Of a stretch of DNA of 33,447 bases, positions 6,410 to 33,074 are shown piece after piece. Location of the stretch: IMG/VR virus record IMGVR_UViG_2734482556_000012; one strand, 5' to 3'. This DNA is from a virus. Lineage: Duplodnaviria > Heunggongvirae > Uroviricota > Caudoviricetes. The notes beneath the pieces were generated by a model that ran no database searches, had not been told where the DNA came from, and was given only the letters and a program-made list of their open reading frames with translations. Positions within the stretch are counted from its first letter, which is position 1; every line of letters starts with the position of its first letter. A program made the position numbers and the translations under genes.

Positions 6410-6867
6410 AAAAAGAGCGGTACCAGCCGGAAGCAAGTGTACAAACTGGTACCGCCAAAGCAGTGGCTGTTGTGGTGGGGTTGTCACTCAGGCGTATGGT
6501 CAACCTGACAATCCGGTGTCCTCAACGGGGAAAGAGTAACCCCGCCATACTTACCGCCGCGCCATTTCGCGGATTACCACAACGCTGAGAGCACTTAGCC
6601 AGTTACGGCACCACACTTTGTCGCGGTTCCATAAATGCCATCATCGTTGCACCCTGGTCTCTTCCCAGGCGTCAAACCGAATCGCCACGCTGGTTAGGCG
6701 TCTTATCAGCATCCTCATTGACTTGCACATTCCGGCTACCTGGTTTGTTTGCCCGAGCAAGGAGTGGATTGTCCCCTTTAACGTCCCCAGACCGCTAACG
6801 ACGCATGTGCCATACGCCGTGTTACAACCAAATTTTGTTTGAATCTTGCCTGCGGCATGTTTCTTTT

Positions 6868-6939: not shown

Positions 6940-7614
6940 TTAGGCCTTTATTTTGTATCTTCTTGGTTTTCCTGAGAAAATTACTGTACCAATTATAGAG
7001 CAATTACCGTTAATCTTAATGTAAGGCTCAGGCCAGTTTGGGTTTAATGCTTTGAGATAACGCTGTGTTCCATCTTCTATCAATCGCTTGAAGGTGGTTT
7101 CGCCTGTATCGTGCATCAATGCAATAACGTCGTCACCGTGGCAGGCAGGGACTTCGGGATCAACAAAAATCATGTCTCCCGGGCGGTACTCATCAATCAT
7201 TGAATCACCAATCACCCGCAAGATATAAGTCATTTCGCCACAGGGTACAGGGCAGGGATAAGTTTCTGCTGTGCTCAAATCAACCTCAGAATAGCCAACT
7301 TCTTTCCATGCTCCGGCCTGTACCCATGATATGACAGGGACTAACGTTATTTGTTTGTTAGTGATTGAAACATCAGGTTTTTTTGTGATGTTCGTGGTCT
7401 GGTGTTCTTGATCAAGCCATCCGACAGGCAGGTCGAAACATTTTTCGATGTGCCGTGCCATGCTGTCACCGATATTTTTAGTAGCACCATCTCCCATAAA
7501 CCTGCTGGTCTGGGTTGGCTCGCGATCAATCATGGTGGCAAAGGAAGAATTCCCGCCAACACCATCTCTCAGTTTTCTGGCGTTAGACCGCCGGATGTCA
7601 TGGACTGTTTTCAT
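6940..7614 (-). CDS. cI: CI-type prophage repressor (N-terminal DNA-binding domain + S24 LexA-like peptidase domain)
   Basis: C-terminal half aligns by eye with lambda CI (VISWVQAGAW Ala-Gly site, GDSM Ser, FKRLIEDG...LNPNWP Lys); no RBS before ATG 7614, suggesting a leaderless mRNA. Confidence 0.85.
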   Translation of the reverse strand: MKTVHDIRRSNARKLRDGVGGNSSFATMIDREPTQTSRFMGDGATKNIGDSMARHIEKCFDLPVGWLDQEHQTTNITKKPDVSITNKQITLVPVISWVQAGAWKEVGYSEVDLSTAETYPCPVPCGEMTYILRVIGDSMIDEYRPGDMIFVDPEVPACHGDDVIALMHDTGETTFKRLIEDGTQRYLKALNPNWPEPYIKINGNCSIIGTVIFSGKPRRYKIKA

Positions 7615-7654: not shown

Positions 7655-7682
7655 TTGAAGGTTCATATTAATCATGTAATAT
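7655..7682 (+). promoter_or_regulatory. candidate pR promoter (-35 TTGAAG, -10 TAATAT)
   Basis: Hexamers at 7655-7660 and 7677-7682, 16-bp spacer, about 20 nt upstream of the cro RBS. Confidence 0.3.
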
Positions 7683-7704
7683 GTATATCGGAGGTACATA
7701 TTGT

Positions 7705-7905
7705 ATGAAAGCGTATTGGGACTCTTTAACCAAAGAACAGCAGGGCGAGTTGGCCGGAAAAGTTGGCTCAACACCAGGCTACTTACGGCTGGTTTTCAAT
7801 GGTTATAAAAAGGCCAGTTTTGTGCTGGCTAAAAAACTTGAGCAATGCACGTCAGGTGCAATTACGAAATCTGACTTAAGACCGGATATCTATCCGAAAG
7901 ATTAA
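7705..7905 (+). CDS. cro: Cro-like small HTH regulator
   Basis: 66-aa ORF divergent from cI; GGAGG RBS 9 nt upstream of ATG 7705; HTH-like segment. Confidence 0.55.
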   Translation: MKAYWDSLTKEQQGELAGKVGSTPGYLRLVFNGYKKASFVLAKKLEQCTSGAITKSDLRPDIYPKD

Positions 7906-7936: not shown

Positions 7937-8500
7937 ATGAGGCTAACCGTGGGTAAGCATCACTGGAAAGTAGAAAAACAGCCTGAGTGGTACGTGAAAG
8001 CTGTGAGAAAAACTATCGCGGCGTTGCCGGGGGGGTACGCTGAAGCTGCTGAGTGGCTGGATGTAACAGAGAACGCTTTATTCAATCGCCTTCGTGCAGA
8101 TGGCGATCAGATTTTCCCGCTGGGATGGGCAATGATTTTACAGCGCGCGGCTGGCACTCACTACATTGCGGATGCTGTCGCACAGTCTGCTGGTGGAGTG
8201 TTTGTATCGCTTCCTGAAATTGAGGAAGTAGAGAACGCCGATATAAACCAGCGCCTGCTGGAAGTCATCGAACAGATCGGGAGTTACTCAAAGCAGATTC
8301 GTTCGGCAATCGAAGATGGGGTAGTGGAGCCACACGAGCAGACAGCAATTAATGATGAGTTGTATCTGTCAATTTCGAAGCTCCAGGAGCATGCAGCACT
8401 GGTCTACAAAATCTTTTGCGCTCCAGAAAAGAGTGACGCCCGCGAGTGTGCAGCTCCGGGCGTCGTGGCGTTTTGTGTCTGTGGAGAAACTAACGCATGA
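7937..8500 (+). CDS. CII-like regulatory protein (HTH + coiled coil; YdaT/CII position)
   Basis: Position directly after cro; N-terminal HTH-like segment and C-terminal heptad region; start 7937 or GTG 7949. Confidence 0.35.
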   Translation: MRLTVGKHHWKVEKQPEWYVKAVRKTIAALPGGYAEAAEWLDVTENALFNRLRADGDQIFPLGWAMILQRAAGTHYIADAVAQSAGGVFVSLPEIEEVENADINQRLLEVIEQIGSYSKQIRSAIEDGVVEPHEQTAINDELYLSISKLQEHAALVYKIFCAPEKSDARECAAPGVVAFCVCGETNA

Positions 8501-9333
8501 ACAGTTTAACGGCAAATAACCGTTTGTCGCAACAGCTGGTGGTCAGTGTCGCTGAACACCTGTTGTTACGGCATGAATGCAGATTACCAAATCACCTGGC
8601 TGTAAGTAACCACAGAGAACTTTACCTGACTGTGGGGGGCGAGTTGTGCAGGAACTTAACCGCTGGTTTCGTGACGGAAGAGGGCTTTATGTCCATGTTA
8701 TTCGTTGGGAGCCAGAAACACAGCGCGTTATCTATCTTCGCAAAGACTACCCGCATGAGTGCTTTAGTCCTTTGTGGAAATTCAGGCGTGATTTTGTTGA
8801 GTGTGAAGGACCACCAGCACATTGATTCTGCCATTCCGGGACGTTACACTGTTCAGGCACCTTATAAAGCGGGTGCCGGGATTGGCGTCCTGGAAATGTT
8901 ATCGGCGATATATGACGCGCCAGCGTCTTTTTTATCGTTTGCGTCTGTGCACACCCAAATTATGGTGGGCTGGACGGGGGCACCGAAAGGTGCGCCGGTT
9001 TCCGATAACGCCGGTTACGCCAACCCCGTTCAGTTCACCACCAGCGAAATTGGCGTTTCCGGTGGTGAAGGTAATTCACTGTTATCGGAGGCTGCCATCA
9101 TGGCTACTGTCCCAGCCCTCACTCGTCTGAATGATGAAGACTTACATAAACTCAGTTATGTAACAACTGCACTACGTGCTCTGCGCAAGGTAACTCTTTC
9201 GGATCCGCAGGCGCATCAGGTTCTGGTAGAAACCCTTCTTAACTTGCAGGCTGAACGTATTCGTCTGGCGGATAAGGCTAATTTTCATATTCACCGTCTC
9301 CTGAATATCAGCGGAGGGCATCGTCATGCTTAA
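8497..9333 (+). CDS. hypothetical protein; reading frame of the 5' third uncertain
   Basis: Only long ORF here, ATGA-coupled at both ends; a second protein-like frame is open over 8610-8825. Confidence 0.35.
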   Translation: MNSLTANNRLSQQLVVSVAEHLLLRHECRLPNHLAVSNHRELYLTVGGELCRNLTAGFVTEEGFMSMLFVGSQKHSALSIFAKTTRMSALVLCGNSGVILLSVKDHQHIDSAIPGRYTVQAPYKAGAGIGVLEMLSAIYDAPASFLSFASVHTQIMVGWTGAPKGAPVSDNAGYANPVQFTTSEIGVSGGEGNSLLSEAAIMATVPALTRLNDEDLHKLSYVTTALRALRKVTLSDPQAHQVLVETLLNLQAERIRLADKANFHIHRLLNISGGHRHA

Positions 9334-9562
9334 TCCGTTGATCCTCAACATTTACCGTTTATTTCAGCGTAAAAAAACATCAATTCCTACAGTTGGGCAG
9401 TGGTACACCACGCCTGCAGGGCATGTTCTACGTGTTAGCCTGGTTGACCGTGAATGTCAGAAGGTGATTTGTGAACCGCTGGGCCGTAATTACCGCGTCA
9501 GTATGCCGCTTATAGCCTTTCGCTCCGGAAAAAACATGAAGCATCTCGGAGGTGCAGCATGA
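9326..9562 (+). CDS. hypothetical small protein (78 aa)
   Basis: GGAGGG RBS 7 nt upstream; start and stop overlap neighbours. Confidence 0.45.
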   Translation: MLNPLILNIYRLFQRKKTSIPTVGQWYTTPAGHVLRVSLVDRECQKVICEPLGRNYRVSMPLIAFRSGKNMKHLGGAA

Positions 9563-10377
9563 GTATGGAGCTGATGGTTAAAGCGATGAAAATTCGAGTG
9601 GGTAATCCATTGCGAAAACTGGTTCTGATCAAGCTGGCTGATAATGCCAGCGATCAGGGTGAGTGCTGGCCCAGCTACCAGCATATTGCTGACCAGTGCG
9701 AGATTAGCAAACGTTCTGTGATGAATCATATTGCGGTCCTTTGTGAGTCCGGGCTGGTAAAAAAAGTCACCCGGAAAGGTGAAAAAGGTAACTCAAGTAA
9801 TATCTATCTCCTTCATCTGGATGGTGCAGGAGATTCACTAGGGGGTAGTGCAAATAATTCACTATCTGGTGCAGCAAATTCACCAGGTAGTGCAGGAGTT
9901 GCACCAGGGGGTAGTGCAGGAGATTCACCCAGAACCAGTCACTCTTTTGAACCAGTCAAAGAACCAGTCAATGAACCAATAGCTGTTGGTGCATCTGCTG
10001 ATGAGTCTGTGCGAGTTCGTTCAAACCGACCGGAATACTCTCCGGAGTTTGAGCAGGCATGGCTGGCATACCCCAAACGTGCTGGTGGCAATTCAAAATC
10101 AGCAGCCTTCAAAGCCTGGAAAGCCCGTTTGAATGAGGGGGTAAACCCCGAAACCATGCTGGAAGGTGTGAAACGCTACTCGTGCTGGGTATCTGCGATG
10201 GGTAACAGCGGCACACAATTTGTGAAACAGGCTGTCACGTTCTTTGGTCCGGATCGTCATTTCGAAGAATCCTGGGAAGTTCCTGCGGTATCTGCAGCCA
10301 GACGCGAGGACCCGTACTTCAAAGCCAGTTACGACAACGTGGACTACAGCCAGATCCCGGCAGGATTCAGGGGGTGA
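9559..10377 (+). CDS. replication initiation protein (O-like; N-terminal wHTH, repeat-encoded Gly/Ser/Ala linker, conserved C-terminal domain)
   Basis: N-terminal HTH block (QHIADQCEISKRSVMNHIAVL); low-complexity linker encoded by iteron-like repeats, as in lambda O; GGAGGTG RBS. Confidence 0.6.
   Translation: MSMELMVKAMKIRVGNPLRKLVLIKLADNASDQGECWPSYQHIADQCEISKRSVMNHIAVLCESGLVKKVTRKGEKGNSSNIYLLHLDGAGDSLGGSANNSLSGAANSPGSAGVAPGGSAGDSPRTSHSFEPVKEPVNEPIAVGASADESVRVRSNRPEYSPEFEQAWLAYPKRAGGNSKSAAFKAWKARLNEGVNPETMLEGVKRYSCWVSAMGNSGTQFVKQAVTFFGPDRHFEESWEVPAVSAARREDPYFKASYDNVDYSQIPAGFRG
9823..9928. repeat. five iteron-like ~16-bp direct repeats (consensus rGTGCAnnAnnTTCAC) at 21-24-bp spacing; candidate replication origin
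   Basis: Copies at 9823-9838, 9847-9862, 9868-9883, 9889-9904, 9913-9928; further GAACCAGTCA repeats at 9931-9975. Confidence 0.5.
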
Positions 10378-10379
10378 TT

Positions 10380-10868
10380 ATGAGTCTTTTGAATGAAGTT
10401 CAGAAATTCATTGAAGCCCATCCGGGGTGTACTTCCGGAGACATTGCGGATGCTTTTGCAGGTTACTCACGGCAGCGCGTTCTGCAGTCAGCAAGCAAGT
10501 TACGTCAGAGTGGGCGTGTGGATCACCGTTGTGAAGGAGATACACGCAGACATTTCCCGCGCCTGACTGAGAGAGCGCAGGAACCGGAACCACAACCAGT
10601 TCGAGAAACCAGACCTGTGCGCAATTTCTATGTCGGCACTAACGATCCCCGTGTGATTTTGTGCCTGACCCGCCAGGCTGAAGAACTGGAGTCCAGGGGC
10701 TTATACCGTCGTGCTGCAACGGTGTGGATGGCGGCATTCCGAGAAAGCCACTCCCAGCCAGAACGAAACAATTTTCTGGCGCGTCGTGAGCAGTGCTTAC
10801 GGAAAAGCAGCAAGCGAGCTGTATCGGGTGATGAGTGGTATCTGTCAGGGAATTACGTGGGGGCTTAA
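10380..10868 (+). CDS. PerC-like transcriptional regulator with extra N-terminal domain
   Basis: C-terminal AEELESRGLYRRAATVWM...RREQCLRK resembles the PerC/Pch signature (recalled); ATG 10380 preferred over GTG 10374. Confidence 0.4.
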   Translation: MSLLNEVQKFIEAHPGCTSGDIADAFAGYSRQRVLQSASKLRQSGRVDHRCEGDTRRHFPRLTERAQEPEPQPVRETRPVRNFYVGTNDPRVILCLTRQAEELESRGLYRRAATVWMAAFRESHSQPERNNFLARREQCLRKSSKRAVSGDEWYLSGNYVGA

Positions 10869-11521
10869 TGAGTAATAAATATTGCCAGGAGCTGGTGGAA
10901 CTGCGGAACAAACCAGCCCATGAACTGAAGGAAGTGGGTGATCAGTGGTGCACGCCGGACAACATTTTCTGGGGAATTAACACCCTGTTTGGCCCGTTTG
11001 TTCTGGATCTGTTCACTGACGGTGATAACGCCAAATGTGCCGCGTATTACACGGCGGAAGACAACGCGCTGGCGCATGACTGGTCAGAACGCCTTGCGGG
11101 GCTTAAAGGTGCTGCCTTTGGTAATCCTCCATACAGCCGCGCCAGTCAACATGAGGGGCAATACATCACCGGCATGCGTTACATCATGAAACATGCCAGT
11201 GCCATGCGTGATAAGGGCGGGCGCTATGTTTTCCTGATCAAAGCTGCCACCAGCGAAGTGTGGTGGCCGGAAGATGCAGATCATATTGCTTTTATTCGCG
11301 GGCGTATTGGTTTTGAACTGCCTGTCTGGTTTATCCCGAAAGACGAGAAGCAGGTACCGACAGGAGCTTTTTTCGCTGGTGCTATTGCTGTTTTTGACAA
11401 GACCTGGAAGGGACCGGCAATCAGCTACATCGGGCGCGATGAACTTGAGGCATGTGGTGAGGCGTTTCTGGCGCAGGTTCGCCAGCAGGCGGAAAAACTG
11501 GTCAGGGAGATGGCGGCATGA
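10868..11521 (+). CDS. phage Dam-family DNA N6-adenine methyltransferase
   Basis: GNPPY catalytic motif with upstream WCTPDNIF...FVLDLFTDGDN block; ATG overlaps upstream stop (TAATG). Confidence 0.8.
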   Translation: MSNKYCQELVELRNKPAHELKEVGDQWCTPDNIFWGINTLFGPFVLDLFTDGDNAKCAAYYTAEDNALAHDWSERLAGLKGAAFGNPPYSRASQHEGQYITGMRYIMKHASAMRDKGGRYVFLIKAATSEVWWPEDADHIAFIRGRIGFELPVWFIPKDEKQVPTGAFFAGAIAVFDKTWKGPAISYIGRDELEACGEAFLAQVRQQAEKLVREMAA

Positions 11522-11844
11522 CGACGTTAACTCAATGCCAGCAGCAGGTGCTGGATATGCTGATTTCTTATCAGAAAGAACGTGGCTTCCCGCCAACCAA
11601 TCAGGAGGTGGCAACCATGCTGGGATACCGTTCAGTGAATGCAGCGGTGGAGCATCTTCGCGCACTGGAGAAAAAAGGCGTCATCACGATAAAGCGTGGC
11701 GTGGCCCGGGGTATCACTCTTCATACCGCGGTGAAGGACGACGACAGCGAGGCGGTCGGGATTATCCGCTCACTGCTTGCCGGTGAGGAAAACGCCAGGC
11801 TGCGTGCAACCCACTGGTTACATGAGAGAGGCCTGAAAGTATGA
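11518..11844 (+). CDS. LexA N-terminal DNA-binding-domain-like protein (no peptidase domain)
   Basis: First ~70 aa align by eye with LexA wHTH (LTxxQQxVLDxI, GFPPT, EVAxxLGYRS.NAA.EHL.AL..KGVI); only 108 aa, no Ser/Lys peptidase motifs. Confidence 0.6.
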   Translation: MTTLTQCQQQVLDMLISYQKERGFPPTNQEVATMLGYRSVNAAVEHLRALEKKGVITIKRGVARGITLHTAVKDDDSEAVGIIRSLLAGEENARLRATHWLHERGLKV

Positions 11845-12230
11845 AGCTGATCCTGCCTTTCCCGCCCAGCGTGAACACGTACTGGCGACACCCCAACAAA
11901 GGGGCATTTGCTGGTAAGAGCCTGATAAGCGCGGCGGGGCGAAAATTTCAGAGCGCGGCGTGCGCAGCAATAGTTGAGCAGTTACGTCGTCTGCCAAAAC
12001 CAACGTCGGCACCTGCTGCAGTGGAGATCGTGTTGTTTCCTCCGGATAACCGGATCCGCGATCTGGACAACTATAACAAGGCGCTGTTTGACGCGTTGAC
12101 CCACGCGGGTGTGTGGGAAGACGACAGACAGGTGAAAAGAATGCTGGTGGAGTGGGGACCGGTTATCCCGAAAGGGAAGGTCGAGATCACCATCAGTAAG
12201 TACGAGAAAACGGCGGGTGCAGCCGCCTGA
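11841..12230 (+). CDS. rusA: RusA Holliday junction resolvase
   Basis: PPSVNTYWRH and RDLDNYNKALFDALT motifs match RusA; ATGA coupling. Confidence 0.85.
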   Translation: MKLILPFPPSVNTYWRHPNKGAFAGKSLISAAGRKFQSAACAAIVEQLRRLPKPTSAPAAVEIVLFPPDNRIRDLDNYNKALFDALTHAGVWEDDRQVKRMLVEWGPVIPKGKVEITISKYEKTAGAAA

Positions 12231-12249
12231 TTAAGAGGAGAAACGAAGT

Positions 12250-13059
12250 ATGAATAATCTGATGGTCATTGATGGTATTGAAGTTCGTCGTGATGCTTAT
12301 GGGCGTTACAGCCTGAACGATCTGCACAGGGCTGCCGGGGGAGAACAAAAAAACCGCCCGAAATACTGGCTCTCCAATAAGCAAACCTGTGAATTGATTG
12401 AACAACTTTTCACCGAGGGTGGAATTCCGCCTCTGGAACAAAATCAACCAGTTAGCGTCATTAATGGCGGAAATAACCAGGGGACGTATGTCTGCAAAGA
12501 ACTGGTGTATGCCTATGCAATGTGGATCAGCCCGTCATTCCATCTGAAGGTGATCCGTACTTTCGACATGGTAACCAGCGCACCGGAAAAATTATCCGGA
12601 CAGGCTGCTGACAAGATGCAGGCTGGCGTGATCCTGCTGGACTTTATGCGCCGGGAATTAAATCTGTCTAACTCATCAGTGCTTGGAGCCTGTCAGAAGC
12701 TTCAGGAGGCTGTTGGCTTACCGAATCTGGCACCGCGCTATGCCATTGATGCTCCTGCTGACGCGCCTGATGGCTCAAGTCGCCCCACGCTGTCGCTGAG
12801 TGCACTGCTGAAACAGTATGGTATCCGCCTGACGGCTAATCAGGCATATCACCAGATGGTGAAGCTAGGGATCGTTGAACAACGCGAACGATACAGCCGT
12901 ACCGCGATTAACAACATCAAAAAATTCTGGTCGCTGACGGCGAAAGGCTGCATGTTCGGCAAGAACATCACCAGTCCCGCAAATCCGCGCGAGACGCAGC
13001 CGCATTTCTTCGAATCCCGATTCCCTGAGCTGTTAAAGTTGCTCGATACCGTTCATTGA
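12250..13059 (+). CDS. KilA-N domain protein (antirepressor-like)
   Basis: N-terminal YSLNDLHRAAGG...RPKYWL...ELIEQL KilA-N signature; AAGAGGAG RBS. Confidence 0.6.
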   Translation: MNNLMVIDGIEVRRDAYGRYSLNDLHRAAGGEQKNRPKYWLSNKQTCELIEQLFTEGGIPPLEQNQPVSVINGGNNQGTYVCKELVYAYAMWISPSFHLKVIRTFDMVTSAPEKLSGQAADKMQAGVILLDFMRRELNLSNSSVLGACQKLQEAVGLPNLAPRYAIDAPADAPDGSSRPTLSLSALLKQYGIRLTANQAYHQMVKLGIVEQRERYSRTAINNIKKFWSLTAKGCMFGKNITSPANPRETQPHFFESRFPELLKLLDTVH

Positions 13060-13060
13060 G

Positions 13061-14056
13061 GTGACCGTGAGAGCACTACTGACCCCTGAAATTGCCCCGC
13101 GTATGGGGATCGTATTGTTCAGGCCAGGTTCAGAGCTGATGCCCCTGTTTATGCAGGGGCGTGTCCTGCTGGAGCCTGAGCCGGAACGTTATTCATCTTT
13201 CGCCAGTGGTGCCGTTCCGGCGGCATCACAACCGCTGGCGGATGATCCTGCCGTTCGGGCCGTGTTCCGCAATGAGGCAGTGATCCGTCGTGCTGGTGGC
13301 GTGGAATGTCTTGAAAGCTGGTTACTTCGTGAAAAAGGCTGCCAGTGGCCTCATTCCGACTGGCACAGCGAGAACATGACAACAATGCGACACGCGCCGG
13401 GCGCAATCCGTCTGTGCTGGCACTGCGATAACCAGCTGCGCGATCAGTTCACGGAACGGCTGGAATCAATGGCAACGGATAACTGTGCCCGCTGGGTGTT
13501 GTCTGTTGTGCGTCGGGATCTCGGTTTTGATGATAGTCACGTTGTGACAATGCCGGAACTGTGCTGGTGGCTGATTCGGAATGACCTGGCGGATGCCTTA
13601 CCGGAAAGTGCAGCCCGTAAGGCACTGAGATTACCGAAGCCTGTTGTGCCGTCTGTCACCCGGGAAAGTGACCTTGTGCCTTCGGTTCCTGCCACCAGCA
13701 TCATCCAGGATAAGGCGAAAAAGGTGCTGGCGCTGAAAGTGGATCCGGAGTCGCCGGAGTCTTTTATGTTACGCCCAAAACGTCGCCGCTGGGTTAATGA
13801 AAAGTACACGCGCTGGGTTAAGACACAGCCGTGTGCATGTTGTGGAAAGCCCGCTGATGATCCCCACCACCTGATAGGTCACGGTCAGGGTGGAATGGGA
13901 ACAAAAGCGCATGACCTTTTTGTGTTGCCTTTGTGCAGAAAGCATCACGACGAGCTGCATGCGGATACCGTGGCATTTGAAGAGAAGTATGGCTCCCAGC
14001 TGGAGCTGATATTTCGTTTTATCGATCGTGCGCTGGCAATTGGCGTGCTGGCCTGA
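13061..14056 (+). CDS. DUF968-like protein with C-terminal HNH-like Cys/His motif
   Basis: C-terminus CACCGKP..DDPHHL...[12 protein letters not shown] resembles a zinc-binding HNH-type motif; GTG start. Confidence 0.4.
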
Positions 14057-14073
14057 TTTTGTGGAGAAAGTTG

Positions 14074-14439
14074 ATGCGTGATATTCAAATGGTTCTTGAA
14101 CGTTGGGGGGCATGGGTGGCAAATAATCACGAGGATGTCACTTGGTCGTCTATTGCTGCAGGATTTAAAGGACTAATCCCTTCAAAAGTAAAATCCCGCC
14201 CGCAATGTTGTGACGATGACGCGATGATCATTTGTGGATGCATGGCTCGCCTGAAAAAGAACAACAGCGATTTGCACGATTTATTAGTGGATTATTATGT
14301 AGGTGGTATGACGTTTATGGCGCTTGCCCGTAAACATGGGCGTTCTGATTGCTGGGTTGGGCGTTTATTGCAAAAGGCTGAAGGTGTAGTTGATGGCATG
14401 TTAATGATGTTAGAAATTGAGCTAGAGATGGATCGTTAG
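14074..14439 (+). CDS. antitermination protein Q-like (small Q family with Cys cluster)
   Basis: [14 protein letters not shown]...[16 protein letters not shown] resembles small prophage Q proteins (recalled); GGAG RBS 7 nt before ATG 14074; sits before the lysis genes. Confidence 0.6.
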
Positions 14440-14450
14440 AAGACCTCTTA

Positions 14451-14479
14451 TTGAGAGGGTAATTGAATCAGTTTAATGT
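14451..14479 (+). promoter_or_regulatory. candidate sigma-70 promoter (TTGAGA-17-TAATGT); possible late promoter pR'
   Basis: Hexamers at 14451-14456 and 14474-14479 just downstream of the Q stop. Confidence 0.3.
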
Positions 14480-14482
14480 GTG

Positions 14483-14512
14483 GGGAGTCGATTTATTCTC
14501 CCCATTTTATTT
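14483..14512 (+). terminator. rho-independent terminator-like hairpin (candidate tR')
   Basis: GGGGAG...CTCCCC stem (14483-14488 with 14499-14504) followed by ATTTTATTT. Confidence 0.5.
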
Positions 14513-14523
14513 AATTAATTTAC

Positions 14524-14970
14524 TTAAGGTTTTAATTCATCAAGACGTTGTTGGATAGTGTTTTTGCTTGCGTTGTCTGTTATAGCCATTTGTTGTACTT
14601 GCCCCATTGCCATTTGAGTTTCCATCCACATATCGGCCCACACTTTTGTATCGTTATTAACTTGAGCGATAGTAAATCTGACTTTTGATACCGGGGTTGT
14701 TGAATAGGCATTGCCGATTAACATTTGTCCAAAAACAGCAGACCCGCCTTCCAGTTCTTTACCACATATAACACTGCTGTTATCCGCGTTGTAAATTATC
14801 AACCCTCTACTATTGCAGTAATTCACAAGGGCATCTTTGACTTTATCTTTTGTCGTATTTTGATAAACCCCCTCAGGTTTTCCTGATTGAGTTTTCTTTA
14901 TCAATGGTACGGAAGAAGTACAACCTGAAATGATAGTTGCGCTAAGTAATAGTACAGTCATTTTATTCAT
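14524..14970 (-). CDS. predicted outer-membrane lipoprotein (moron)
   Basis: Signal peptide with lipobox ISGC (MNKMTVLLLSATIISG-C), Thr at +2; AT-rich gene antisense to the late operon. Confidence 0.6.
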   Translation of the reverse strand: MNKMTVLLLSATIISGCTSSVPLIKKTQSGKPEGVYQNTTKDKVKDALVNYCNSRGLIIYNADNSSVICGKELEGGSAVFGQMLIGNAYSTTPVSKVRFTIAQVNNDTKVWADMWMETQMAMGQVQQMAITDNASKNTIQQRLDELKP

Positions 14971-15093
14971 GTTTCTTATCCATTGTTAAGGGCATACCTA
15001 CACAATTATTTTTATTGGAGATGAATAATCAACCGTTTACAATCGTAAAAAATCAAATATGCTGTTAAGAGTGGTTACTTCGCCACACAACTT

Positions 15094-15118
15094 AAACCCG
15101 CCGCTGAGCGGTTTTTTT
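15094..15118 (+). terminator. rho-independent terminator-like hairpin
   Basis: Short GC stem (ACCCGC...GCGGT) followed by T7 at 15112-15118. Confidence 0.4.
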
Positions 15119-15216
15119 GTACCTGTAAACTTGGTGCAGTACAGTAAACACGCTGGTGGTCGTGAATACTGACTTTTTATCTTGCTGGCTTTTTAGACAA
15201 GAGTTATTGGTATGTC

Positions 15217-15444
15217 ATGTTAACCAGAAGGGAAAAAGACATGCTAAAACAGCAAGATATGACAGAAACCGCCGCCGCAGTCCTTCATTTCTTACCTGCT
15301 GACAAGTGGGTAACGCCACGCATGATGACGAGAACTACCGGAGTAAGCGAAGCCCGGTGCCAGTTAATACTGACTCAGTTAGTTCTGGCGGGTCTGGCGA
15401 AGGATAACGGTGGGTACGGGAATAAATTCAGACGCTGCCAGTAA
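15217..15444 (+). CDS. small wHTH protein, FaeA/PapI-like
   Basis: About 70 aa with AAVLHFL...TGVSEARCQLILTQLVLAGL, architecture like PapI/FaeA; alternative start ATG 15241 has a better RBS. Confidence 0.4.
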   Translation: MLTRREKDMLKQQDMTETAAAVLHFLPADKWVTPRMMTRTTGVSEARCQLILTQLVLAGLAKDNGGYGNKFRRCQ

Positions 15445-15594
15445 TGGCGGTTTCCTGCTGTGAAAATGGGCGGCTGGTGGGTGTTGGTAGCACCTGCCAG
15501 CCATTCGCTCATGCTTACTGGTCACAAGCGAACCACGGCCCACTGCTTTAGCGCAAAAGCAGAGTGAGCCTACCAGAGTTACGCTTACTGATCC

Positions 15595-16647
15595 ATGAAA
15601 AATACTGTAAAAATAAACAGTGTTGATTTAATCAACGCTGATTGCCTGCATTTTATTCAGTCCCTGCCTGATGATTCCATTGACCTGATTGTTACCGATC
15701 CGCCTTACTTCAAGGTGAAACCCAACGGTTGGGACAATCAGTGGAAAGGGGACGAAGATTACCTTAAGTGGCTGGACCACTGTCTGGCCCAGTTCTGGCG
15801 GGTGTTAAAACCTGCCGGAAGCCTTTACCTGTTCTGTGGGCATCGTCTGGCATCTGATATTGAGATCATGATGCGTGAACGTTTCAACGTGCTTAACCAT
15901 ATCATCTGGGCGAAGCCGTCCGGACGTTGGAATGGGTGTAATAAAGAAAGTCTGCGCGCATATTTTCCTGCCACAGAGCGCGTTCTGTTTGCTGAACATT
16001 ACCAGGGGCCATATCGCGGCAAAAGTGACGGCTATGCGGCAAAAGAAAGGGAACTCAAACAGCACATAATGGCACCGCTGATATCGTATTTCAGGGATGC
16101 TCGTGCCGAACTGGGTATAACGGCAAAACAAATTGCCGAAGCCACAGGTAAGAAAAATATGGTTTCCCACTGGTTTGGTGCCAGTCAGTGGCAGTTGCCG
16201 AATGAGGCTGACTATCGGAAGTTACAGGCACTGTTTTCCCGTATAGCGGCAGAGAAGTTTCAGGAACAACAACTGGAACAACCACACCACCAGCTGGTGG
16301 CATCTTATGATTCACTGAATCGCAAATATTCTGAATTGCTGGATGAGTTTAAATCTCTCCGGCGCTATTTCTCCGTATCAGTCTCCGTGCCTTATACCGA
16401 TGTCTGGATGCATAAACCCGTTCAGTTCTACCCGGGTAAACATCCGTGTGAGAAACCTGCGGATATGCTCCGGCAAATAATCAATGCCAGTAGTCGACCT
16501 GGTGATCTGGTTGCTGATTTTTTTATGGGATCCGGTTCCACAATAAAAGCAGCAATGGCGCTGGGGCGTCGGGCCTTAGGTGTTGAGCTTGAGTCAGAGC
16601 GGTTTAACCAGACAGTGAAAGAGATAAACGAGCTGGTGGGGAAATAA
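15595..16647 (+). CDS. beta-class DNA methyltransferase (N6A or N4C), orphan
   Basis: Motif IV VTDPPYF near the N-terminus and motif I FFMGSGST near the C-terminus, with a ~130-aa insert between; no adjacent restriction gene. Confidence 0.8.
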   Translation: MKNTVKINSVDLINADCLHFIQSLPDDSIDLIVTDPPYFKVKPNGWDNQWKGDEDYLKWLDHCLAQFWRVLKPAGSLYLFCGHRLASDIEIMMRERFNVLNHIIWAKPSGRWNGCNKESLRAYFPATERVLFAEHYQGPYRGKSDGYAAKERELKQHIMAPLISYFRDARAELGITAKQIAEATGKKNMVSHWFGASQWQLPNEADYRKLQALFSRIAAEKFQEQQLEQPHHQLVASYDSLNRKYSELLDEFKSLRRYFSVSVSVPYTDVWMHKPVQFYPGKHPCEKPADMLRQIINASSRPGDLVADFFMGSGSTIKAAMALGRRALGVELESERFNQTVKEINELVGK

Positions 16648-32381: not shown

Positions 32382-33074
32382 TGCAGAATATCCGACAGGA
32401 AACACTGAATGAATGCACCCGTGCGGAGCAGTCTGCCAGCGTGGTGCTCTGGGAAATCGATCTGACAGAGGTCGGCGGAGATCGTTATTTCTTCTGTAAT
32501 GAGCAGAACGAAAAAGGTGAACCAGTCACCTGGCAGGGGCGGCANNNNNNNNNNNNNNNNNNNNNNNNNNNNNNNNNNNNNNNNNNNNNNNNNNNNNNNN
32601 NNNNNNNNNNNNNNNNNNNNNNNNNNNNNNNNNNNNNNNNNNNNNNNNNNNNNNNNNNNNNNNNNNNNNNNNNNNNNNNNNNNNNNNNNNNNNNNNNNNN
32701 NNNNNNNNNNNNNNNNNNNNNNNNNNNNNNNNNNNNNNNNNNNNNNNNNNNNNNNNNNNNNNNNNNNNNNNNNNNNNNNNNNNNNNNNNNNNNNCAGCGA
32801 ACTGAGCGCGGTGAGCGCCTCTTTTGTACTGTCCACGCCGACGGAAACGGATGGCGCTGTTTTTCCGGGGCGCATCATGCTGGCCAACACCTGTACCTGG
32901 ACCTATCGCGGTGATGAGTGCGGTTATAGCGGTCCGGCTGTCGCGGATGAATATGACCAGCCGACGTCCGATATCACGAAAGATAAATGCAGTAAATGCC
33001 TGAGTGGCTGTAAGTTTCGCAATAATGTCGGCAACTTTGGCGGCTTCCTTTCCATTAACAAACTTTCGCAGTAA
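32381..33074 (+). CDS. L: minor tail protein L, interrupted by a 250-N assembly gap
   Basis: N-terminus (MQNIRQETLNECTRAEQSASVVLWEIDLTEVGG) and C-terminus (...KCSKCLSGCKFRNNVGNFGGFLSINKLSQ) match lambda L either side of the gap; span not a multiple of 3, so the gap size is nominal. Confidence 0.8.
32545..32794. other. assembly gap (250 N)
   Basis: Uninterrupted N run; technical, not biological. Confidence 0.98.

What the first reader, a model, noticed from the sequence alone, without database searches (positions are those of the whole stretch)
11518..11844. LexA DNA-binding-domain-only protein in the early-right operon
This 108-aa protein matches the LexA N-terminal wHTH almost residue for residue in the recognition region but lacks the S24 peptidase domain, so it cannot autocleave after RecA activation. 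Such a protein could occupy SOS boxes as a non-inducible LexA mimic, or derepress them by heterodimerising with LexA, giving the phage a handle on the host SOS response. Its start and stop overlap the Dam MTase and RusA genes.
Basis: partly seen in the sequence, partly recalled or inferred. Interest (0 to 1): 0.45.

Follow-up and report, generated by a model that had tools for sequence, protein, structure and literature searches.

The report
Phage LexA-type DNA-binding protein without protease
A lambdoid prophage gene encodes a small protein with the DNA-binding head of the SOS repressor LexA and a short helical tail instead of the self-cleaving domain; it occurs in about 41% of complete E. 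coli genomes and is already annotated, but no study of its function turned up, so what it binds is still only inferred.

Summary
ORF 11518-11844 (+) encodes 108 aa. It matches Pfam LexA_DNA_bind end to end (E=2.9e-19), has no S24 peptidase domain, and shares ATGA overlaps with the Dam and RusA genes.

The gene is not new. It is SfV orf42 / mEp460 gp46 / phrog_362, annotated "LexA family transcriptional regulator". It is present in 2233 of 5426 complete E. coli genomes and is under strong purifying selection (pN/pS 0.088). I found no functional study of it. The closest characterised analogue is GIL01 gp6, a truncated LexA homologue that activates a late promoter.

New here:
- Residues 74-103 form a two-helix tail conserved across Enterobacteriaceae, probably a dimerisation module.
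- Four of LexA's five base-contacting residues are kept; E44 is Val.
- The window holds one strong canonical SOS box (15603-15622), at the start of the late-region DNA methylase gene.
- Phages carrying this gene more often carry strong SOS boxes, but shared ancestry confounds that association.

Best reading (about 40%): a delayed-early LexA surrogate that RecA cannot inactivate and that occupies SOS-type boxes. Main rival (about 33%): a gp6-like regulator with its own operator. Heterodimerising with LexA is unlikely.

The parts
11518..11844 (+). Complete gene for the 108-aa LexA-type DNA-binding protein (SfV orf42 / mEp460 gp46 / phrog_362 family)
   Evidence: ORF listing and sequence; PF01726 E=2.9e-19; phrog_362 E=1.1e-59 over the full length; 98-100% identical genes in SfV, mEp460, Stx2c phages and SKA5
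11518..11721 (+). Winged helix-turn-helix domain, residues 1-68 (helices 6-22, 28-35, 40-52; strands 56-58, 66-68)
   Evidence: AF2 model with block pLDDT 79-87; Foldseek to LexA-DNA complex 3jso, rmsd 1.0 A, 50% identity
11629..11667 (+). Recognition-helix segment, residues 38-50 (RSVNAAVEHLRAL). S39, N41, A42 and E45 are as in LexA; P40V and E44V differ
   Evidence: Alignments; contact residues from PMC3091678; no amino-acid variation in residues 38-50 among 93 alleles
11737..11826 (+). C-terminal two-helix module (helices 74-87 and 93-103) after a low-confidence linker (residues 71-76, pLDDT below 50); proposed dimerisation element that replaces the S24 domain
   Evidence: AF2 model; conserved pattern EAxxLIRxLxAGxxxARxxAxxxL in relatives of 38-50% identity from Cronobacter, Kosakonia, Enterobacter, Klebsiella, Cedecea and Salmonella; no Pfam match. 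The dimerisation role is inferred
11518..11521 (+). ATGA overlap of the Dam stop codon with this gene's start codon (translational coupling)
   Evidence: Sequence; Dam ORF 10835-11521, PF05869 E=4.7e-45
11841..11844 (+). ATGA overlap of this gene's stop codon with the RusA start codon
   Evidence: Sequence; RusA ORF 11841-12230, PF05866
15603..15622 (.). Candidate target, not proven: canonical LexA/SOS box TACTGTAAAAATAAACAGTG within codons 3-10 of the N6_N4 DNA methylase gene (15595-16647), the first large gene after Q
   Evidence: PWM score 22.9 bits against a maximum of 18.6 in 100 shuffles, and the only strong site in the window. The box is kept in three diverged methylase alleles, including one from Kosakonia, while the flanks diverge

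Best explanation
The gene makes a delayed-early phage protein. It is transcribed with the pR operon and is translationally coupled to Dam and RusA. Residues 1-68 form a LexA-type winged helix-turn-helix, and residues 74-103 form a two-helix tail that takes the place of LexA's S24 dimerisation and autocleavage domain. I propose that the tail (possibly together with wing-wing contacts on DNA) lets two copies sit on a palindromic operator of the SOS type, with CTGT half-sites. Because there is no protease domain, RecA* cannot inactivate the protein. It would therefore act as a surrogate LexA during lytic growth, when host LexA has been destroyed. It would re-occupy LexA boxes on the phage (here the box at the start of the late-region methylase gene) and possibly host SOS boxes. 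Shown: the fold, the domain content, the missing protease, the operon position, purifying selection, and the presence and conservation of the SOS box. Inferred: dimerisation through the tail, the DNA specificity, repression, and the timing.
For: LexA_DNA_bind matches over its full length and no S24 domain is found. The model superposes on DNA-bound LexA at 1.0 A with 50% identity. S39, N41, A42 and E45 are retained, and the recognition helix is invariant in 93 alleles. pN/pS is 0.088, so the protein is functional. No promoter-like site lies upstream and both ends overlap neighbouring genes, so the gene is expressed with the early-right operon. The window has a single outstanding SOS box at 15603-15622. 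That box is conserved across methylase alleles of 80-83% protein identity, and in a Kosakonia prophage that also carries a 50%-identical homologue in the same gene order. In an endolysin-anchored sample, a strong SOS box is present in 17 of 20 loci with the gene against 7 of 30 without it (nominal p=3e-5). Loci carrying a near-identical copy of the cI-type repressor allele that holds an internal SOS box have the gene in 60 of 63 cases, and methylase allele A loci have it in 66 of 71, against a baseline of 20 of 50. LexA N-terminal domains contact each other on the operator (PMC3159453), so a DNA-binding-domain-only protein could bind cooperatively.
Against: E44, a base-contacting residue, is Val here and is never acidic anywhere in the short family. 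Relatives in hosts that share the same SOS box have rewritten recognition helices: Citrobacter RSVNTITGHL, Cronobacter ASPNAATDML, Klebsiella SSSNAVLLHL, Salmonella RSQNTVFIHL. That pattern is typical of regulators with private operators. The Citrobacter variant still lies 3 kb downstream of a strong SOS box whose sequence is that of the cI-linker box, which points to host LexA as that box's binder. The methylase box is kept, in a variant but still strong form, in 5 of 6 methylase-positive loci that lack the gene. About half of the loci with the gene have no strong SOS box within 10 kb. All the association counts come from near-identical mosaic relatives and are not corrected for shared ancestry. 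The SOS-box PWM was built from E. coli sites recalled from memory. There is no direct evidence for dimerisation or for DNA binding.
Confidence: 0.4

Rival explanations
1. It is a dedicated phage transcription factor with its own operator, like GIL01 gp6. It derives from LexA but has been re-targeted, and it activates or represses a phage promoter rather than SOS boxes.
For: There is a precedent: gp6 is a truncated LexA homologue, 44% identical to its host's LexA DNA-binding domain, that binds GaCACAnnTGTGaC at the late promoter P3 and activates it (PMC6182141). E44 is lost across the whole family, and the recognition helix has diversified among enterobacterial relatives whose hosts share one SOS box. 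BFVD holds many short phage proteins made only of a LexA DNA-binding domain, including tectiviral ones.
Against: No candidate operator was found. The co-inherited block (window 10.4-14.0 kb) has no intergenic region, and its inverted repeats are unremarkable. The E. coli-type protein keeps four of the five LexA contact residues. tblastn of this protein against the phage collection at E<=1e-3 tallied no Bacillus or tectivirus records by organism name.
Confidence: 0.33
2. It is an accessory DNA-binding protein for the neighbouring DNA-metabolism genes (Dam, RusA, DUF968/HNH), for example helping recombination or replication. It would be analogous in position to small nin-region DNA binders and would not be a transcription regulator.
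For: The gene is tightly co-inherited with, and translationally coupled to, (PerC)-Dam-RusA-KilA-N-DUF968 in E. coli, Shigella, Citrobacter and Kosakonia. The comparison with lambda NinH next to the Rap resolvase is from memory and is only a lead.
Against: The sequence-specific recognition helix is strictly conserved, and the fold is that of a site-specific repressor. Nothing links LexA-type winged HTH domains to junction or structure-specific binding.
Confidence: 0.12
3. It inactivates host LexA by forming mixed dimers, so that SOS genes are derepressed.
For: The only support is the shared N-terminal domain. LexA N-terminal domains do touch each other on DNA (PMC3159453), so mixed occupancy of one operator cannot be excluded.
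Against: LexA dimerises through its C-terminal domain, which is missing here. Mixed occupancy would still leave the operator occupied. The gene is expressed after induction, when LexA is already being cleaved.
Confidence: 0.04
4. It is a decaying remnant of a captured lexA gene with no function.
For: A frameshifted copy exists in a Shigella genome (L083), and truncated database entries exist.
Against: pN/pS is 0.088 over 93 alleles. Both the domain and the tail are conserved across genera. The gene is present in 41% of complete E. coli genomes. It is only 44-50% identical to enterobacterial LexA, so it is not a recent capture.
Confidence: 0.02

Closest known systems
GIL01 / Bam35 gp6 (tectivirus truncated LexA homologue; PMC6182141)
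   Same: It is phage-encoded, expressed early, and consists essentially of a LexA winged HTH with no S24 domain. It is 44% identical to its host's LexA DNA-binding domain, the same as this protein's overall identity to E. coli LexA (44%; about 50% within the DNA-binding domain).
   Different: gp6 ends after a short extension that completes the wing. This protein adds a conserved 35-residue two-helix tail. gp6 has a changed specificity (GaCACAnnTGTGaC, K38 critical) and activates the late promoter; the target and the sign of regulation are unknown here. The host and phage type also differ (Gram-positive tectivirus against enterobacterial lambdoid phages). tblastn of this protein against the phage collection at E<=1e-3 tallied no Bacillus or tectivirus records by organism name.
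E. coli LexA N-terminal domain (residues 1-84; PDB 1lea, 3jso)
   Same: Same fold (rmsd 1.0 A), 50% identity, same residue numbering. S39, N41, A42, E45, H46, L47 and the wing motif R64-G65-I66 are conserved.
   Different: There is no S24 catalytic and dimerisation domain. E44 is Val and P40 is Val. An Ala-Gly pair at 88-89 aligns with the LexA cleavage site but is predicted to lie in the turn between two helices and is not conserved in the family. The protein falls below the lexA equivalog cut-off.
SfV Orf42 / mEp460 gp46 / SfII, SfIV, cdtI and Stx2c-phage homologues (phrog_362; Stx-phage 'pham 237')
   Same: This is the same gene: 95-100% protein identity and the same Dam/PerC - gene - RusA order. 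It is listed as a pfam01726 'LexA family transcriptional regulator' in 15 Stx phages (PMC8136144).
   Different: Nothing differs materially. These records carry annotation only, ranging from 'unknown' to the wrong labels 'RecA-mediated autopeptidases' and 'SOS-response repressor and protease LexA'. I found no experimental work.

Membership tests
LexA repressor proper (TIGR00498 equivalog; S24 family) | N-terminal LexA-type winged HTH DNA-binding domain | tested here: met
   PF01726 E=2.9e-19, positions 1-65 of 65; 1lea 6.9e-16; 3jso rmsd 1.0 A
LexA repressor proper (TIGR00498 equivalog; S24 family) | C-terminal S24 peptidase / dimerisation domain with the Ser119-Lys156 dyad | tested here: not met
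   No PF00717 hit, whereas the phage's own cI (6940-7614) does hit it. The protein ends at residue 108. TIGR00498 scores 70.8 bits, below the cut-off of 110.95, and covers only positions 1-91 of 203
LexA repressor proper (TIGR00498 equivalog; S24 family) | Ala84-Gly85 cleavage site used in RecA*-stimulated self-cleavage | tested here: inconclusive
   A88-G89 aligns with LexA A84-G85. It lies in the predicted turn between two helices and is replaced in relatives (LANEE, VERES, TRKE, AEEP). Cleavage in cis is impossible without the catalytic domain
LexA repressor proper (TIGR00498 equivalog; S24 family) | Binds CTGT-N8-ACAG SOS boxes | not testable with these tools
   Only indirect evidence: four of five contact residues kept and a strong box present at 15603-15622
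Truncated phage LexA homologues of the GIL01 gp6 type | Phage-encoded protein that is essentially a LexA DNA-binding domain without S24 | tested here: met
   definition taken from PMC6182141
Truncated phage LexA homologues of the GIL01 gp6 type | Binds its own palindrome overlapping the -35 of a late promoter and activates transcription | not testable with these tools
   No candidate operator was found in the linked block or in the Q-to-methylase spacer
Truncated phage LexA homologues of the GIL01 gp6 type | Direct sequence relatedness to gp6 beyond the shared Pfam domain | tested here: inconclusive
   tblastn of this protein against 50,697 phage records at E<=1e-3 matched 63 records. The named organism classes are enterobacterial or unclassified, two classes and 23 rows were not shown, and no Bacillus or tectivirus record appeared among those named. 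I did not verify that GIL01 or Bam35 are in that collection. BFVD gives fold-level matches to Tectiviridae 'LexA DNA binding domain' proteins
Enterobacterial prophage 'LexA family transcriptional regulator' (phrog_362; SfV Orf42 type) | Full-length match to the 106-position family profile | tested here: met
   phrog_362 E=1.1e-59, residues 1-108 on positions 1-106 of 106
Enterobacterial prophage 'LexA family transcriptional regulator' (phrog_362; SfV Orf42 type) | Gene order (PerC-like)-(Dam)-gene-RusA-...-DUF968-Q | tested here: met
   Window; mEp460; Shigella, Citrobacter and Kosakonia loci; 66 of 71 methylase-anchored loci
Enterobacterial prophage 'LexA family transcriptional regulator' (phrog_362; SfV Orf42 type) | Conserved C-terminal two-helix extension after the wing | tested here: met
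   AF2 helices 74-87 and 93-103; conserved in relatives of 38-66% identity

The most novel reading that the evidence does not exclude
The SfV/mEp460/Stx2c-type lambdoid lineage carries its own small 'SOS regulon'. Canonical LexA boxes sit in a cI-type repressor allele, upstream of a KilA-N gene variant, and at the start of the late-region DNA methylase gene. Host LexA would hold these boxes in the lysogen. After induction the phage's own LexA look-alike, which RecA cannot inactivate, would take them over and might also re-silence host SOS genes. If so, roughly 41% of complete E. coli genomes would carry a latent SOS shut-off factor.
Probability: 0.3. Interest if true: 0.7.

Novelty: new member of a known kind. 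Interest (0 to 1): 0.4.

Why it matters
If the protein binds SOS boxes, lambdoid prophages, including Stx2c and Stx2a converting phages, would carry a RecA-insensitive substitute for LexA. That substitute could shut down the host SOS response, competing LexA-controlled prophages or colicins, and phage genes such as the late methylase, at exactly the time host LexA is gone. This would affect induction dynamics, mutagenesis and toxin-phage biology in a large share of E. coli strains. If it has a private operator instead, it would be the first Gram-negative counterpart of GIL01 gp6. Either way, many public records should be re-annotated: the protein is not a protease or autopeptidase.

Tried and rejected
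- **Operator search.** I looked for a private operator as inverted repeats in 9300-15700 and promoter-like sites in 10300-12300 and 14400-15750. Nothing stood out. The linked block has no intergenic space.
- **Exact CTGT-N8-ACAG scan.** The window gave 17 hits at up to one mismatch, against 11 expected, which is not significant. Only the PWM scan isolated one strong site.
- **Second exact match at 8600-8615.** It scores only 6.5 bits and lies inside the Ash-family gene, so I rejected it.
- **Conservation of the methylase box in 85-90% alleles.** The 5' regions were identical and therefore uninformative. Allele B and the Kosakonia allele were informative.
- **Ala-Gly at 88-89 as a trans-cleavage site.** It is not conserved in the family, so I rejected the idea.
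- **C-terminal tail against Pfam.** No match. PADLOC gave only a marginal, irrelevant hit.
- **Distant genomic contexts.** The genome scan with the close alignment mostly returned genuine lexA genes of Alteromonadales and Halieaceae.
- **Rfam scan of the Q-to-methylase spacer.** Nothing above threshold. No tRNAs were found in the window.
- **Zhang et al. 2010 LexA-DNA structure paper.** It was not retrievable, so I took the contact residues from PMC3091678.
- **Literature searches for functional work on this coliphage gene.** None found.

Full report
**1. The observation**

Window 11518-11844 (+) is an intact ORF of 108 codons, ATG to TGA. Its start forms an ATGA overlap with the stop codon of a Dam-family methylase gene (10835-11521; PF05869, E=4.7e-45). 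Its stop forms an ATGA overlap with the start of a RusA resolvase gene (11841-12230; PF05866).

The protein matches Pfam LexA_DNA_bind over the whole model: residues 1-65 on positions 1-65 of 65, E=2.9e-19, 69 bits against a cut-off of 23.7. It has no Peptidase_S24 hit. NCBI's lexA equivalog model reaches only 70.8 bits (cut-off 110.95) and covers only positions 1-91 of 203. The best solved-structure relatives are the E. coli LexA DNA-binding domain (1lea, 6.9e-16) and full-length LexA, with residues 2-69 aligned to LexA residues 2-69 in the same numbering.

**2. Context**

The window is a lambdoid prophage or phage closely related to PhiR40_1, mEp460, SfV and Stx2c-converting phages. The local gene order is as follows:

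| Coordinates | Strand | Gene |
|---|---|---|
| 6940-7614 | - | cI-like S24 repressor |
| 7681-7905 | + | cro-like gene |
| 7937-8500 | + | CII-like gene |
| 8497-9333 | + | Ash-family gene |
| 9559-10377 | + | replication protein |
| 10374-10868 | + | PerC-like gene |
| 10835-11521 | + | Dam |
| 11518-11844 | + | the LexA-type gene |
| 11841-12230 | + | RusA |
| 12250-13059 | + | KilA-N protein |
| 13061-14056 | + | DUF968/HNH |
| 14059-14439 | + | antiterminator Q |
| 15595-16647 | + | N6_N4 DNA methylase, followed by the lysis genes |

No promoter-like site precedes the gene, and it overlaps its neighbours at both ends. It is therefore a delayed-early gene of the rightward operon. That conclusion is an inference from the gene arrangement.

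**3. The gene is already known and very common**

- The same gene, at 95-100% protein identity, is annotated in SfV (orf42, 'unknown'), mEp460 ('LexA DNA binding domain protein'), SfII, SfIV, cdtI phage, Stx2a and Stx2c phages and others.
- It matches phrog_362 ('transcriptional repressor') end to end at 1e-59.
- It is present in 2233 of 5426 complete E. coli genomes, with up to four copies per genome.
- It was found in more than 500 IMG/VR contigs.
- A survey of Stx phages lists a pfam01726 'LexA family transcriptional regulator' pham in 15 phages, without any functional work (PMC8136144).
- Five literature searches found no experimental study of this coliphage protein.
- Some public labels are wrong for a protein without an S24 domain, for example 'RecA-mediated autopeptidases' and 'SOS-response repressor and protease LexA'.

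**4. Anatomy**

An AlphaFold2 model (mean pLDDT 78) shows three elements:
- a winged helix-turn-helix, with helices 6-22, 28-35 and 40-52 and strands 56-58 and 66-68;
- a low-confidence linker at residues 71-76;
- two further helices at 74-87 and 93-103.

The first 68 residues superpose on DNA-bound E. coli LexA (3jso) with rmsd 1.0 A at 50% identity.

The C-terminal helices match nothing in Pfam. They are nevertheless conserved, with the pattern EAxxLIRxLxAGxxxARxxAxxxL, in relatives of 38-66% identity from Citrobacter, Cronobacter, Kosakonia, Enterobacter, Klebsiella, Cedecea and Salmonella. The tail is therefore a real module and not debris. I infer that it replaces the S24 domain as the dimerisation element. 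The representative search also found proteins with two tandem LexA_DNA_bind domains. That is another way to present two such heads to a palindrome.

Purifying selection is strong. pN/pS is 0.088 over 93 distinct alleles, and there are no amino-acid changes in residues 38-50.

**5. DNA-recognition residues**

PMC3091678 lists the LexA contact residues as Ser39, Asn41, Ala42, Glu44 and Glu45. The phage protein has S39, N41, A42, V44 and E45. Over residues 38-50 it is identical to LexA at 10 of 13 positions, with changes P40V, E44V and K48R.

Across the short family, position 44 is V, F, A, T, L or Y and is never acidic. Several lineages have heavily altered helices: Citrobacter RSVNTITGHL, Cronobacter ASPNAATDML, Klebsiella SSSNAVLLHL and Salmonella RSQNTVFIHL. 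All these hosts are Enterobacteriaceae, which by established knowledge share the CTGT-N8-ACAG box. The E. coli-type protein therefore looks able to read a CTGT-type half-site. The family as a whole, however, is not constrained to the host SOS box.

**6. SOS boxes**

I built a PWM from 26 E. coli LexA sites recalled from memory, which is a caveat. It finds exactly one outstanding site in the window: TACTGTAAAAATAAACAGTG at 15603-15622. It scores 22.9 bits, against a training median of 20.4 and a maximum of 18.6 in 100 shuffles.

The site lies within codons 3-10 of the methylase ORF. It is kept in three diverged alleles while the second codon and the upstream sequence differ:
- allele A: the sequence above;
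- allele B: TACTGTAAAAATATCCAGTT;
- a Kosakonia allele: TACTGTAAATTTAAACAGTA.

The box is therefore almost certainly functional. The Kosakonia prophage also carries a 50%-identical homologue of the LexA-type gene in the same gene order.

Related phages carry other strong boxes:
- one inside the linker-coding part of the mEp460 cI-like repressor gene;
- one in a 150-bp spacer between rusA and a KilA-N gene variant.

**7. Association tests**

| Sample | Result |
|---|---|
| Endolysin-anchored, 50 IMG/VR loci: gene against methylase | both 11; methylase only 6; gene only 9; neither 24 (odds ratio 4.9, p=0.015) |
| Same sample: any strong SOS box | 17 of 20 loci with the gene; 7 of 30 without (p=3e-5) |
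| Loci carrying methylase allele A | 66 of 71 have the gene, across at least three Q types |
| Loci carrying a near-identical copy of the mEp460-type cI allele that holds the internal box | 60 of 63 have the gene |
| Baseline | 20 of 50 have the gene |

These numbers are suggestive. They come from near-identical mosaic relatives, and the gene belongs to a semi-conserved early-region backbone; the co-inherited block is window 10.4-14.0 kb. The p-values are therefore nominal.

Counter-evidence:
- Five of the six methylase-positive loci that lack the gene keep a strong box at the methylase start (the allele B form).
- The Citrobacter variant, whose recognition helix has changed, still lies 3 kb downstream of a strong SOS box whose sequence is that of the cI-linker box.
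- About half of the loci with the gene have no strong box within 10 kb.

Host LexA is thus the obvious primary binder of these boxes. The phage protein may share them.

**8. Mechanism**

Best-supported reading, about 0.40: the protein is a LexA surrogate that RecA cannot inactivate. It dimerises through its tail and occupies SOS-type boxes during lytic growth, when host LexA has been cleaved.

Main rival, about 0.33: it is a re-targeted regulator with a private operator, as shown for GIL01 gp6. gp6 is 44% identical to its host's LexA DNA-binding domain, binds GaCACAnnTGTGaC and activates the late promoter (PMC6182141).

Minor rivals:
- an accessory DNA binder for the adjacent recombination and modification genes (0.12);
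- a LexA poison acting through heterodimers (0.04), which is unlikely because LexA dimerises through the missing C-terminal domain (PMC3159453);
- a non-functional remnant (0.02), which the selection data exclude.

**9. Verdict**

The finding is real and correctly described at the domain level. The gene is common and already annotated, and the kind of protein (a phage-encoded truncated LexA homologue) is known from tectiviruses.

This analysis adds four things:
- the conserved helical tail;
- the E44 substitution across the whole family;
- the conserved SOS box at the late methylase gene;
- a suggestive but confounded enrichment of SOS boxes in phages that carry the gene.

Function remains untested. 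Interest is moderate.

Noticed in passing
window 15603-15622 (inside methylase ORF 15595-16647): A near-consensus LexA/SOS box lies within codons 3-10 of the late-region N6_N4 DNA methylase gene. It is conserved in three diverged alleles, including one from Kosakonia, while the flanks and the second codon diverge. This suggests that host LexA controls or blocks transcription of this methylase.
   Followed up: partly
window 15621-15635: A perfect palindrome GTTGATT-T-AATCAAC abuts the SOS box. The Kosakonia allele has ATTGATT-T-AATCAAT, a change on both arms that keeps the symmetry. Methylase allele B, found in phages without the LexA-type gene, has the degenerate form TGTGAGTTAATCAAC. By chance about two such palindromes are expected per window, so the significance is unclear.
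   Followed up: partly
L001 (mEp460) 6514-6533; the same box in many IMG/VR loci: A very strong SOS box (TACTGTTTTTACATACAGTA, 25.9 bits) lies inside the coding sequence of the cI-like S24 repressor, in the linker between its HTH and peptidase domains. Of 63 loci carrying a near-identical copy of this repressor allele, 60 also carry the LexA-type gene.
   Followed up: partly
L074 10765-10784 (also L061, L078 and others): In some relatives a 150-bp spacer between rusA and a KilA-N gene variant holds a strong SOS box (TACTGTATTTATGAACAGTG). This suggests a LexA-controlled KilA-N or antirepressor-like gene. In this window the spacer is only 19 bp and has no box.
   Followed up: partly
window 32545-32794: A run of 250 N (masked or unassembled sequence) lies in the tail-gene region.
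   Followed up: no
proteins P0127, P0129, P0136, P0138, P0143: These are proteins of 140-220 aa with two tandem LexA_DNA_bind domains and no S24 domain, in effect single-chain 'pseudo-dimers' of the LexA head.
   Followed up: partly
window 14524-14970 (-) and 15217-15444 (+): Two ORFs between Q and the methylase gene (148 and 75 aa) have no Pfam family. The minus-strand ORF has a promoter-like site at 14989-14960 and could be a moron.
   Followed up: no
window 15470-15590: A conserved, structured-looking stretch lies upstream of the methylase gene, with inverted repeats at 15472-15502 and 15543-15562. It sits where Stx phages, from memory, carry tRNA genes. ARAGORN finds no tRNA and Rfam finds nothing here.
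   Followed up: partly
public records listed: Annotation is inconsistent or wrong. This gene is labelled 'RecA-mediated autopeptidases' or 'SOS-response repressor and protease LexA', and the neighbouring Dam gene is labelled 'phosphoadenosine phosphosulfate reductase'.
   Followed up: no
L083 211-533 (Shigella flexneri chromosome): A frameshifted pseudogene copy of the LexA-type gene lies in a decaying prophage. Its rusA and DUF968 genes are also broken into pieces.
   Followed up: no
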